Shown one piece after another: positions 1,643 through 61,650 of a DNA stretch of 64,000 bases (position 1 is the stretch's first letter; each line of letters starts with the position of its first letter). Source of the stretch: Escherichia coli (GTDB taxonomy: Bacteria > Pseudomonadota > Gammaproteobacteria > Enterobacterales > Enterobacteriaceae); assembly GCF_013122565.1 (NCBI RefSeq), contig NZ_CP053258.1; one strand, given 5' to 3'. The position numbers and the translations under genes are program-made. The notes below the pieces were generated by a model. It ran no database searches, was not told where the DNA came from, and saw only the letters and a program-made list of their open reading frames with translations.

Positions 1643-1654
1643 GGAAGGGAAACT

Positions 1655-1705
1655 TGACTTCATACTGTGATGTCATACTATTGATGTCATAAAGTGAAGT
1701 CATAA
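1655..1705. promoter_or_regulatory. Cluster of four ~10-bp repeats (tgacttcata / tgatgtcata x2 / tgaagtcata) directly upstream of the HicA-like ORF; candidate operator/promoter
   Basis: Repeats read directly in the sequence at 1655-1664, 1668-1677, 1682-1691 and 1695-1704, ending 10 bp before the ATG at 1715. Confidence 0.4.
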
Positions 1706-1714
1706 GGACATGCC

Positions 1715-1990
1715 ATGAGAACCAAGGTACAGGCTTTACGGAAGAAACAAAAAAATACATTGGATCAAATATTTAAAACTCCTGTTCCTCAAGGGATCAA
1801 GTGGTCTGATATAGAGTCACTGGTTAAAGCATTAGGCGGAGAAATTAAGGAAGGAAGAGGTTCGCGTTGTAAGTTCATACTAAATATGAGCGTTGCGTGT
1901 TTCCATCGGCCTCATCCGTCGCCAGATACCGATAAAGGCGCTGTAGAAAGCGTGCGTGACTGGTTACTAAGTATAGGGGTAAAACCATGA
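1715..1990 (+). CDS. HicA-like (YcfA family) mRNA-interferase toxin candidate
   Basis: 91-aa basic protein with a GSR-CKF core and a C-terminal His/Pro segment reminiscent of HicA; stop overlaps the start of the downstream HicB-like ORF (ATGA at 1987-1990). Confidence 0.5.
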   Translation: MRTKVQALRKKQKNTLDQIFKTPVPQGIKWSDIESLVKALGGEIKEGRGSRCKFILNMSVACFHRPHPSPDTDKGAVESVRDWLLSIGVKP

Positions 1991-2346
1991 TCAAACTGAA
2001 GACGCCAAACTCTATGGAGATTGCCGGGCAACCTGCTGTTATCACTTACGTGCCAGAACTGAATGCATTTCGTGGCAAATTCCTGGGCTTGTCAGGTTAT
2101 TGTGATTTTGTCTCTGACAGCATTCAGGGGCTGCAAAAAGAAGGGGAACTTTCCCTGCTAGAGTATCTTGAGGATTGTAAAGCTGCGGGTATTGAGCCGT
2201 ATGCGCGTACAGAAAAGATTAAGACCTTTACGTTACGCTATCCAGAATCGCTGAGTGAACGCCTTAATAATGCGGCTGCGCAGCAACAAGTCTCTGTTAA
2301 TACCTATATTATTGAAACACTGAATGAGCGTTTGAATCATTTATAA
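1987..2346 (+). CDS. HicB-like antitoxin (HicB fold with C-terminal ribbon-helix-helix-like tail)
   Basis: 119 aa; C-terminal SVNTYIIETLNERL resembles an RHH DNA-binding motif; translationally coupled to the upstream toxin-like ORF. Confidence 0.6.
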   Translation: MIKLKTPNSMEIAGQPAVITYVPELNAFRGKFLGLSGYCDFVSDSIQGLQKEGELSLLEYLEDCKAAGIEPYARTEKIKTFTLRYPESLSERLNNAAAQQQVSVNTYIIETLNERLNHL

Positions 2347-2400
2347 ATTTTAGCGGCGTACATTACGCAGAATATCTGCCTTTACAGGATCTATCTATGC

Positions 2401-2434
2401 AACTGAACTTAATTTTATAAATTAAGTTCAGTTA
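2401..2434. terminator. Near-perfect 15-bp-arm inverted repeat between convergent HicB-like gene and nikR; probable bidirectional terminator or insertion-junction hairpin
   Basis: aactgaacttaattt ... aaattaagttcagtt read directly. Confidence 0.4.
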
Positions 2435-2465
2435 ATATCTTTTCTTTCCTCGTTTTAGAAATAAC

Positions 2466-60132: not shown

Positions 60133-61650
60133 ATGGAAAGAATAATGCAAAACAGAAAATGGATTTTGACCTCGCTGGTAATGACTTTTTTCGGCATCCC
60201 CATACTGACGCAATTTTTGGCAGCGGTTGTTGCTATGCTGGGGGGCGGGCTTGCCGCTATTCTTGAGGTTTGCAATTTACTCTTTACGCCAGCAATTTAT
60301 CTTCTACTCAACGTCTTTATGCTGACTCTGGGGGCGATAATAATATTTTTCTCTGGTCGCGTGTGGGCGGGCGATAGTGCACCAGAAAAAAAAGAAATAG
60401 CCGTCTGGCGACAATGTCTTTTTTTAGTACCTGCTTTATTCACCCTGGTTGGCTGGATAATCACGCTACATCTGGCAGATTATCAATTTCGCCAGATGGG
60501 AGACGGTTGGTTGGCAAACCTTATGCTTCCCTGGTTGGGCGTTTTTTTAGTCTCATTAGTGGGTGGTGAGTACTGGTGGATAGTCATTATACCCGTTGGC
60601 GCGCATATCAGTTTTTCGCTGGGGTACGGTTGGCCGACCAGACATCTTTTAACGGGCACGTCCGGGTTACGTTGCCGTAATTCCCTCTTGTTTATCCTTC
60701 TCATGCTTGGTTTTGTCGCCGGTTACCAGGCTTATTTATATAAACAGCTTAATCCCGGCGTCGGTGTGCGTGAAAATATTGATACCTGGGCCTGGCGACC
60801 CGATAAACTCAATAATCAACTGACACCACTGCGTGGTAAACCGCAAATTCAGTTCACGCAAAACTGGCCGCGACTCGATGGTGCTACGGCGGCGTACCCA
60901 ATTTATGCCTCTGCATTTTATGCTTTAAGCGTTATACCGGAAGATTTTCACGCCAGGAAATATCTGGAGAACTCTCGTACCCCCGATGCGTATAACAGGA
61001 TTGTTAAAGGTGATGCCGATATTATTTTTGTGGCGCAGCCCTCCGGTGGGCAGAAAAAACGCGCTGAGGAATCGGGCGTCACTTTGCTGTACACGCCTTT
61101 TGCCCGTGAAGCGTTTGTTTTCATCGTCAATGCAGATAACCCGGTTAATTCCCTGACCGAACAACAAGTGCGTGACATCTTCAGTGGCGCAATTACCAAC
61201 TGGCGCACGGTTGGCGGTAACGATCAGGAGATCCAGACCTGGCAACGCCCGGAAGACTCAGGTAGCCAGACGGTGATGCAGGCGCAGGTCATGAAAAATG
61301 TACGTATGATCTCGCCGCAGGAGACCGAAGTGGCTGAAATGATGGGAGGGATGATTAAAGTTGTTGCCGAATACCGTAATACAAACAACTCAATAGGCTA
61401 CACCTTCCGCTATTACGCAACGCAAATGAATACCGATAAGAATATCAAATTGTTAGCGATTAACGGTATTGCACCGACTGCGGAAAACATCCGTAACGGC
61501 AAATATCCCTATATCGTCGATGCCTTTATGGTAACGCGGGAAAATATGACGTCAGAAACGCAAAAACTGGTGGAATGGTTTTTAACGCCGCAGGGGCAAA
61601 GCCTGGTGGAAGATGTGGGTTATGTGCCGATGTATCCAACAATGAAATAA
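60133..61650 (+). CDS. Membrane-anchored protein: N-terminal multi-TM domain fused to a PstS-like (type 2 periplasmic binding fold) domain
   Basis: 505 aa; about 6 predicted TM helices in the first ~230 aa; C-terminal domain strongly similar to the adjacent 333-aa paralog (shared FVAQPS.GQKKRAEE, WQRPEDSGSQTVMQ, IGYTF.YY motifs). Confidence 0.6.
   Translation: MERIMQNRKWILTSLVMTFFGIPILTQFLAAVVAMLGGGLAAILEVCNLLFTPAIYLLLNVFMLTLGAIIIFFSGRVWAGDSAPEKKEIAVWRQCLFLVPALFTLVGWIITLHLADYQFRQMGDGWLANLMLPWLGVFLVSLVGGEYWWIVIIPVGAHISFSLGYGWPTRHLLTGTSGLRCRNSLLFILLMLGFVAGYQAYLYKQLNPGVGVRENIDTWAWRPDKLNNQLTPLRGKPQIQFTQNWPRLDGATAAYPIYASAFYALSVIPEDFHARKYLENSRTPDAYNRIVKGDADIIFVAQPSGGQKKRAEESGVTLLYTPFAREAFVFIVNADNPVNSLTEQQVRDIFSGAITNWRTVGGNDQEIQTWQRPEDSGSQTVMQAQVMKNVRMISPQETEVAEMMGGMIKVVAEYRNTNNSIGYTFRYYATQMNTDKNIKLLAINGIAPTAENIRNGKYPYIVDAFMVTRENMTSETQKLVEWFLTPQGQSLVEDVGYVPMYPTMK

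What the first reader, a model, noticed from the sequence alone, without database searches (positions are those of the whole stretch)
1643..2465. HicA/HicB-like pair with a four-copy repeat operator where K-12 carries the RhsB element
Seen in sequence: two coupled ORFs (91 aa and 119 aa, ATGA overlap) follow a 50-bp region with four copies of TGA(T/A)GTCATA-like repeats, and are separated from convergent nikR by a 15-bp-arm inverted repeat. Established knowledge: in K-12 the nikR-yhhJ interval holds rhsB, yhhH and an H-repeat element. Inference: this strain has a small toxin-antitoxin-like module at this Rhs hot spot; the toxin assignment is tentative because the canonical HicA His is not obvious.
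Basis: partly seen in the sequence, partly recalled or inferred. Interest (0 to 1): 0.45.

Follow-up and report, generated by a model that had tools for sequence, protein, structure and literature searches.

The report
Annotated hicAB toxin-antitoxin cassette
This is an ordinary, already-annotated HicA/HicB toxin-antitoxin gene pair with its own repeat operator, found in about 38% of complete E. coli genomes where K-12 has the RhsB element; its one unusual feature is a toxin subfamily with arginine in place of the usual catalytic histidine.

Summary
Two overlapping ORFs (hicA 1715-1990, 91 aa; hicB 1987-2346, 119 aa; ATGA overlap) follow four TGANNTCATA repeats (1655-1704) that cover a sigma-70-like promoter. 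A perfect 15-bp-arm hairpin (2401-2433) follows them, ahead of convergent nikR.

Pfam places both proteins above its curated cut-offs (HicA_toxin, HicB). [quoted passage not shown]

RefSeq already annotates this pair as HicA/HicB in 2,071 of 5,426 complete E. coli genomes. A Klebsiella orthologue is listed as a "Class 4 hicAB" in Gerdes 2024.

K-12 replaces the whole 1643-2459 interval with rhsB-yhhH-yrhC-yhhI. Citrobacter has the same yhhJ-hicAB-nikR order, so hicAB is probably the older occupant of the site.

The repeat motif sits at the same promoter positions in five other Enterobacterales loci, which supports an operator role.

The catalytic His at the start of strand beta-2 is Arg51, and this holds across a large subfamily (142 of 147 representatives) that also keeps an FHRPHP motif. 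Toxicity and RNase activity are untested.

About 39% of carrier genomes have a stop at hicA codon 2 with hicB intact.

Verdict: a known kind, low to moderate interest.

The parts
1643..2459 (+). Variable cassette holding promoter, hicA, hicB and terminator. K-12 replaces the whole interval with the rhsB element.
   Evidence: Similarity to K-12 ends at 1642 and resumes at 2460; K-12 annotation.
1654..1681 (+). Sigma-70-like promoter: -35 TTGACT (1654-1659), 16-nt spacer, -10 TACTAT (1676-1681).
   Evidence: Consensus scan. The same TTGACT / 16 nt / TAnnAT layout is seen in the sequences of Citrobacter L018 and locus L003. No transcription data.
1655..1704 (+). Four direct TGANNTCATA repeats (1655, 1668, 1682, 1695), the putative HicB operator. 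They overlap the -35, the spacer, the -10/start site and the early leader.
   Evidence: The core TGANNTCA is found near -60, -33 and -20 from the ATG, the -60 site in 5 and the other two in 3-5 of six other Enterobacterales loci.
1704..1708 (+). Shine-Dalgarno-like AAGGA, 6 nt before the hicA ATG.
   Evidence: Read from the sequence.
1715..1990 (+). hicA: 91-aa HicA-family protein of the Arg51 ('GSR ... FHRPHP') subfamily, with an N-terminal helical extension.
1987..2346 (+). [quoted passage not shown] Its start overlaps the hicA stop (ATGA).
2401..2450 (+). Perfect 15-bp-arm hairpin (2401-2433) followed by a T-rich tract. Probable intrinsic terminator of hicAB; a poor terminator for nikR on the other strand (no U-run there).
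   Evidence: Unrelated hairpins occupy the same position after hicB in L003 and L015, with a weaker one in L006.

Best explanation

Shown here:
- The two-gene layout with overlapping stop and start codons.
- Family and fold assignments for both proteins.
- A promoter-like site buried in four repeats.
- Conservation of that repeat motif at the same promoter positions in other genera.

Inferred:
- HicB dimerises through its ribbon-helix-helix domain and binds the TGANNTCATA repeats, shutting off the promoter by occlusion.
- The HicB N-terminal domain covers the HicA active face and neutralises it.
- Free HicA stops growth by acting on RNA.
- Because the canonical catalytic His is Arg51 here, the chemistry probably relies on Arg51 together with His64 and His67. 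His64 lies at the end of strand beta-3, cross-strand from Arg51. His67 is the His of the common 'PHP' motif. This last step is the least certain.
For: ORFs and the ATGA overlap.

Pfam hits above the curated cut-offs.

HicA model: pLDDT 92.8, with alpha-beta-beta-beta-alpha after two extra N-terminal helices. HicA crystal structures 6g26, 1whz and 6hpb are among the top fold matches, with target-normalised TM 0.62-0.73.

HicB model: pLDDT 86.5. Its best fold matches are HicB structures 6g26_B, 4p7d, 4p78, 6u0i and 6hpb_B, plus Arc.

The hicA-hicB pair with a 4-nt overlap recurs in Serratia, Citrobacter, Leminorella, Xenorhabdus, Dickeya and an Azospirillum-like contig.

Repeat statistics and positional conservation of the motif.

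A distant HicB, whose ribbon-helix-helix strand differs in sequence, sits behind a different repeat (TAGCGCATTCCGCTATCGT, two copies). Reading head and operator therefore change together.

Between genera dN is 0.09-0.19 while synonymous sites are saturated, which indicates purifying selection on both genes.

Relatives occur on plasmids and in phage families named 'toxin' and 'HicB-like antitoxin'.

A K. variicola orthologue pair is listed as Class 4 hicAB with RHH.

hicA has been knocked out at least three independent ways in E. coli while hicB stays intact.
Against: The histidine at the start of beta-2, essential in every HicA tested so far (reviewed in PMC11594946 and PMC12297915), is arginine here.

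I found no experiment on this subfamily or this locus.

No sequence relative has a solved structure: phmmer found none, and the family profile only reached 9svk at E = 0.1.

Foldseek E-values for the small HicA domain are weak (0.35-3).

Operator binding, promoter activity, toxicity and neutralisation are all inferred.

NCBIfam has no model that matches the toxin, and PADLOC has no match to either protein.
Confidence: 0.75

Rival explanations
1. The pair has HicAB ancestry, but the Arg51 HicA is not a nuclease. It is either a non-cleaving RNA-binding inhibitor or a harmless partner, and the operon now acts mainly as a small autoregulated DNA-binding regulator.
For: The catalytic His is replaced by Arg in 142 of 147 subfamily representatives. 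In tested HicAs that His is essential. There are no experimental data for this subfamily.
Against: Gly49, Arg51, His64 and His67 are nearly invariant across about 1,000 representative clusters, which points to a conserved active surface. The family occurs on plasmids and in phages like classic addiction modules. hicA, not hicB, is the gene repeatedly disrupted in E. coli. Other RNase toxins such as the RelE family work without a catalytic His (my own knowledge, not tested here).
Confidence: 0.15
2. In this strain the module is an inert, decaying remnant with no current function.
For: 809 of 2,071 carrier genomes have a TAA at hicA codon 2 and have lost one operator repeat. Frameshift alleles at the G49-R51 codons and at codons 61-62 are common in draft assemblies.
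Against: The window allele has both ORFs intact, all four repeats, the promoter and the ribosome-binding site. The identical 91-aa protein is seen on at least 1,000 contigs. Divergence between genera shows purifying selection.
Confidence: 0.1

Closest known systems
Klebsiella variicola PIA10432.1 / PIA10431.1, listed as Class 4 hicAB in Table S1 of Gerdes 2024 (mBio 15:e03293-23)
   Same: A clear orthologue pair: a 91-aa HicA with the same GRGSRCKF and FHRPHPSPDTDKGAVESVRDWL stretches, a 119-aa HicB, a -4 overlap, and an RHH call for HicB.
   Different: It comes from a different genus and was only catalogued, not tested. The paper's main text does not discuss active-site residues.
Yersinia pestis HicA3/HicB3 and Burkholderia pseudomallei HicAB (RHH-type HicB; PDB 4p78, 4p7d, 6g26)
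   Same: Same gene order. Same HicB architecture (partial RNase-H fold plus C-terminal ribbon-helix-helix), and these are the best fold matches to the HicB model. Same HicA core fold. Both repress their own promoter through HicB.
   Different: No detectable pairwise sequence similarity. Those HicAs are about 60-66 aa with a catalytic His at the start of beta-2. This one is 91 aa, has about 28 extra N-terminal residues forming two helices, and has Arg at that position.
E. coli K-12 HicA/HicB (yncN/ydcQ; PDB 6hpb)
   Same: Same family, same host species, and a hicA-then-hicB operon.
   Different: The K-12 HicB uses a helix-turn-helix domain (Class 3). HicA there is 58 aa with His23. It lies at a different chromosomal locus. 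Profile comparison found no meaningful alignment.
Ribbon-helix-helix repressors that bind tandem short repeats (Arc, MetJ, CopG)
   Same: The HicB C-terminus matches Arc-like profiles. The operator is an array of short units, each internally near-palindromic (TGA..TCA), as in the MetJ 'met boxes' (my own knowledge).
   Different: Here the DNA-binding domain is fused to an antitoxin domain. Binding has not been shown.

Membership tests
HicA toxin (Pfam PF07927 / COG1724) | Profile match above the curated threshold | tested here: met
   37.7 bits against a cut-off of 27; residues 30-80 match profile positions 1-52 of 58.
HicA toxin (Pfam PF07927 / COG1724) | Alpha-beta-beta-beta-alpha dsRNA-binding-like fold | tested here: met
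   The AlphaFold model (pLDDT 92.8) has H30-39, E43-46, E51-56, E59-64 and H74-86. HicA structures 6g26, 1whz and 6hpb are among the top Foldseek hits with TMt 0.62-0.73, but the E-values are weak.
HicA toxin (Pfam PF07927 / COG1724) | Conserved Gly in the beta1-beta2 turn (Gly22 of B. pseudomallei HicA) | tested here: met
   Gly49 is invariant in the family alignment and present in 145 of 147 representatives.
HicA toxin (Pfam PF07927 / COG1724) | Catalytic His at the start of beta-2 (G-x-H), essential in all tested members | tested here: not met
   The position is Arg51 (G49-S50-R51). It aligns with the His of RGSH in PDB 9svk and beta-2 starts at residue 51. It is Arg in 142 of 147 representatives and His in 1. 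The role of the His is taken from PMC12297915 and PMC11594946.
HicA toxin (Pfam PF07927 / COG1724) | Growth arrest when expressed alone, relieved by the cognate HicB; RNase activity | not testable with these tools
   No experiment found for this subfamily.
HicB antitoxin (Pfam PF05534 / COG4226) | Profile match above the curated threshold | tested here: met
   56.7 bits against a cut-off of 21.
HicB antitoxin (Pfam PF05534 / COG4226) | N-terminal partial RNase-H-like fold | tested here: met
   The model has strands 9-43 followed by helix 46-67. The top Foldseek hits are HicB chains 6g26_B, 4p7d_A and 4p78_A with probability 0.99-1.00.
HicB antitoxin (Pfam PF05534 / COG4226) | C-terminal DNA-binding domain (here ribbon-helix-helix) | tested here: met
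   Arc and CopG profile matches to residues 75-117. Arc is a fold match with probability 0.98.
HicB antitoxin (Pfam PF05534 / COG4226) | Binds an operator in its own promoter | not testable with these tools
   Indirect support only: four repeats over the promoter, conserved in position across genera.
Class 4 hicAB operon (Gerdes 2024) | hicA upstream of hicB in one operon, with HicB carrying a C-terminal RHH domain | tested here: met
   An orthologue is listed in that class.
Rhs element | Large rhs core ORF with downstream tip/immunity genes and an H-repeat | tested here: not met
   The interval is 817 bp with only the two small ORFs. It has no similarity to the K-12 rhsB element.

The most novel reading that the evidence does not exclude
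The long 'GSR ... FHRPHP' HicA proteins form a mechanistically distinct branch. The catalytic histidine has moved from the start of beta-2 to the neighbouring strand (His64, with His67), and Arg51 has taken a new role. The conserved N-terminal helices would then add a function, such as target choice or HicB docking, that the short HicAs lack. If so, their targets or chemistry could differ from the textbook HicA mRNA interferase.
Probability: 0.25. Interest if true: 0.4.

Novelty: already known. Interest (0 to 1): 0.2.

Why it matters
For genome annotation it matters little: the pair is already named correctly in public records.

Three points are useful.
- A very large HicA subfamily lacks the one residue on which the accepted HicA mechanism rests. 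It has about 1,000 representative clusters and is present in more than a third of E. coli, including O157:H7. No member appears to have been tested, so a few point mutants would settle whether the accepted mechanism applies to it.
- The repeat array and its conserved placement give a ready-made operator for studying how an RHH-type HicB reads DNA.
- The yhhJ-nikR interval is a clear multi-state locus (hicAB, rhsB element, a sugar PTS island, or hicAB plus the island). It also carries natural toxin knock-out alleles, which is useful for population studies of how toxin-antitoxin modules decay.

Tried and rejected
- Direct sequence search of both proteins against solved structures gave nothing useful for HicA and only a marginal Arc match for HicB. 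A family profile reached one HicA chain, 9svk, at E = 0.1.
- Profile comparison with K-12 HicA aligned the wrong helices and was discarded. K-12 HicA itself finds only its own structure.
- NCBIfam has no model for the toxin. PADLOC has no match to either protein. Rfam finds nothing in 1500-2700, so there is no sign of an RNA antitoxin or riboswitch.
- Literature searches for this locus or subfamily (hicA with nikR/yhhJ, the 'hexulose-6-phosphate synthase' mis-name, hicA2/hicAB2, hicB essentiality) found no experimental work. The Serratia HicAB-2 that came up could not be tied to this subfamily.
- I considered that the 15-bp inverted repeat might be a recombination or insertion scar shared with other locus states. 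It is absent from K-12, ST131 and Citrobacter, and a terminator role fits better.
- I considered a two-way terminator shared with nikR, but the minus strand has no U-run after the stem.
- An 'empty site' probe (yhhJ end joined to nikR end) found no genome with an empty site. The 167 joined hits, judging by the one inspected (strain 4), are shortened hicAB alleles.
- dN/dS could not be given as a number because synonymous sites are saturated.

Full report
**1. What is in the sequence**

yhhJ ends at 1642 (TAA). The next 72 bases hold a sigma-70-like promoter: TTGACT at 1654-1659, a 16-nt spacer, and TACTAT at 1676-1681. They also hold four direct repeats: TGACTTCATA (1655), TGATGTCATA (1668), TGATGTCATA (1682) and TGAAGTCATA (1695).

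The pattern TGANNTCATA occurs only once more in the 64-kb window, where about 1.2 matches are expected by chance. Four copies on one strand within 50 bp are therefore not chance.

An AAGGA lies 6 nt before the ATG at 1715. ORF 1715-1990 encodes 91 aa and ORF 1987-2346 encodes 119 aa. They overlap by ATGA.

A perfect 15-bp-arm inverted repeat (2401-2433) follows. It folds at -15.3 kcal/mol (z = -8) and has a T-rich tail on the + strand only. nikR runs convergently at 2466-2867.

**2. What the proteins are**

- **HicA by profile.** The 91-aa protein matches Pfam HicA_toxin at 37.7 bits (cut-off 27).
- **HicB by profile.** The 119-aa protein matches Pfam HicB at 56.7 bits (cut-off 21), with weaker Arc and CopG matches in its last 40 residues.
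- **HicA model.** Built on 54 homologues, pLDDT 92.8. It has two extra N-terminal helices (residues 2-19) followed by alpha (30-39), three strands (43-46, 51-56, 59-64) and alpha (74-86), which is the HicA fold. HicA crystal structures are among the top fold matches. E-values are weak, as expected for a 60-residue domain.
- **HicB model.** pLDDT 86.5. Its best matches are the HicB chains of B. pseudomallei, Y. pestis and E. coli, and Arc for the C-terminus.

RefSeq names the pair 'HicA family toxin' and 'HicB family antitoxin'. The identical proteins occur on at least 1,000 contigs.

[quoted passage not shown] His Table S1 lists a plain orthologue pair from Klebsiella variicola in that class. 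So the kind is already catalogued.

**3. The histidine question**

In every HicA tested, a His at the start of beta-2, two residues after a conserved Gly, is needed for toxicity or RNase activity.

Here the motif is G49-S50-R51, and beta-2 begins at residue 51. A family profile aligns 'rGSR' with the 'RGSH' of PDB 9svk.

This is a trait of a whole subfamily, not a lesion in this strain. A profile search of 1.8 billion representative proteins found 1,022 clusters at E <= 1e-10. Counts among the best 147 were:

| Position | Residue | Representatives with it (of 147) |
|---|---|---|
| 49 | Gly | 145 |
| 50 | Ser | 144 |
| 51 | Arg | 142 (His in 1) |
| 64 | His | 144 |
| 67 | His | 143 |

Strands 51-56 and 59-64 form a tight hairpin. 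Residue 64 should therefore sit cross-strand from residue 51. This is an inference from the secondary-structure register; I could not inspect coordinates.

My reading is that the active surface is kept but rearranged. That is untested, and the main text of the Gerdes paper does not mention active-site residues.

**4. Evidence that the repeats are an operator**

The core TGANNTCA recurs upstream of hicA near -60 (on the -35 hexamer), -33 and -20 from the ATG, though not every locus has every site. It is seen in Citrobacter (L018), another Enterobacteriaceae contig (L003), Serratia (L002), Dickeya (L017) and Leminorella (L006), and partly in Xenorhabdus (L016). These loci otherwise have 1 or 2 matches in their remaining roughly 6 kb.

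The fourth site, at -47 in the window, is degenerate in some relatives.

A distant member (L008, 24% HicB identity) has a different ribbon-helix-helix strand (GKMLVRA against KTFTLRY). It sits behind a different repeat, TAGCGCATTCCGCTATCGT, in two copies.

Positional conservation, together with the change of reading head and site in parallel, is what an autoregulatory operator predicts. Binding itself is not shown.

**5. The locus in the species**

| State of the yhhJ-nikR interval | Evidence |
|---|---|
| hicAB | 2,071-2,073 of 5,426 complete genomes, always chromosomal |
| K-12-type nikR-rhsB junction | 2,122 of 5,426 |
| 5.9-kb PTS/aldolase sugar island, no hicAB | an ST131 genome |
| hicAB followed by that island | strain 131 |

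Similarity between the window and K-12 breaks exactly at the yhhJ stop and 6 bp before the nikR stop. The whole 817-bp cassette is therefore exchanged.

Citrobacter is collinear with the window through rbbA-yhhJ-hicA-hicB (78.9% identity) and through nikR-nikE-nikD (81.3%). L003 also has hicAB next to nikR. This argues that hicAB is the older occupant and that the Rhs element displaced it.

In Serratia, Xenorhabdus, Dickeya and Leminorella the pair sits alone between unrelated housekeeping genes. Relatives also occur on plasmids and in phage protein families.

**6. Signs of activity and of decay**

Between genera, dN is 0.09-0.19 while synonymous sites are saturated. Both genes are therefore under purifying selection.

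Within E. coli, hicA has been broken in several independent ways while hicB is unchanged:

- **Codon-2 stop allele.** 809 complete genomes carry an allele with one operator unit deleted (14 bp) and ATG-TAA at codon 2. RefSeq rescues it as a 76-aa protein starting at CTG.
- **Further deletion.** One genome with that allele has an additional 22-bp deletion.
- **Frameshift at the motif.** A frameshift in the G49-R51 codons gives a 55-aa product that is frequent in draft assemblies.
- **Other frameshifts.** Further frameshifts occur near codon 61.

Loss of the toxin first, with the antitoxin retained, is the usual decay path of chromosomal toxin-antitoxin modules. It is mild indirect support for toxicity. 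The window allele is the intact four-repeat form.

**7. Verdict**

It describes a module that is already annotated and already classified.

The only part that goes beyond the records is the Arg-for-His active site of a very large, untested HicA subfamily. That is a modest, easily testable question rather than a surprise.

Noticed in passing
L014:441-777 (E. coli A1_181); same allele in L011: A common hicA allele has lost exactly one 14-bp operator repeat and has TAA at codon 2. RefSeq annotates it as an intact 76-aa HicA starting at CTG, which is probably a pseudogene called as a gene. 809 complete genomes match this allele.
   Followed up: partly
L012:1501-1668: A frameshift allele has a cluster of base changes and a 1-nt deletion exactly in the codons for Gly49-Ser50-Arg51, giving a 55-aa product (P0094). 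It is frequent in draft assemblies but matches at 99% or better in at most 7 complete genomes.
   Followed up: partly
L015:502-1292 (E. coli strain 131) and L010:1216-7122 (ST131): A 5.9-kb sugar island (class II aldolase, HPr, FGGY kinase, PTS IIA/IIB/IIC, GntR regulator) can sit between yhhJ and nikR, either alone (ST131) or after hicAB (strain 131). The interval therefore has at least four states.
   Followed up: partly
L011:1904-2112; proteins P0052, P0055, P0058, P0077: Several public records name this HicA 'hexulose-6-phosphate synthase'. This looks like a propagated mis-annotation.
   Followed up: no
window 2158-2160 (HicB residue 58): The window's HicB has Leu58, where the widespread E. 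coli allele (WP_000593555.1) and the family consensus have Arg. Its effect is unknown.
   Followed up: no
protein P0127 (Shigella sonnei, 102 aa, 133 member sequences): A HicB truncated within the ribbon-helix-helix domain is common in Shigella sonnei records. I did not check whether hicA is intact there.
   Followed up: no
window 61545-61554 (- strand): This is the only other TGANNTCATA match in the window (TGACGTCATA), a single copy and probably chance.
   Followed up: no
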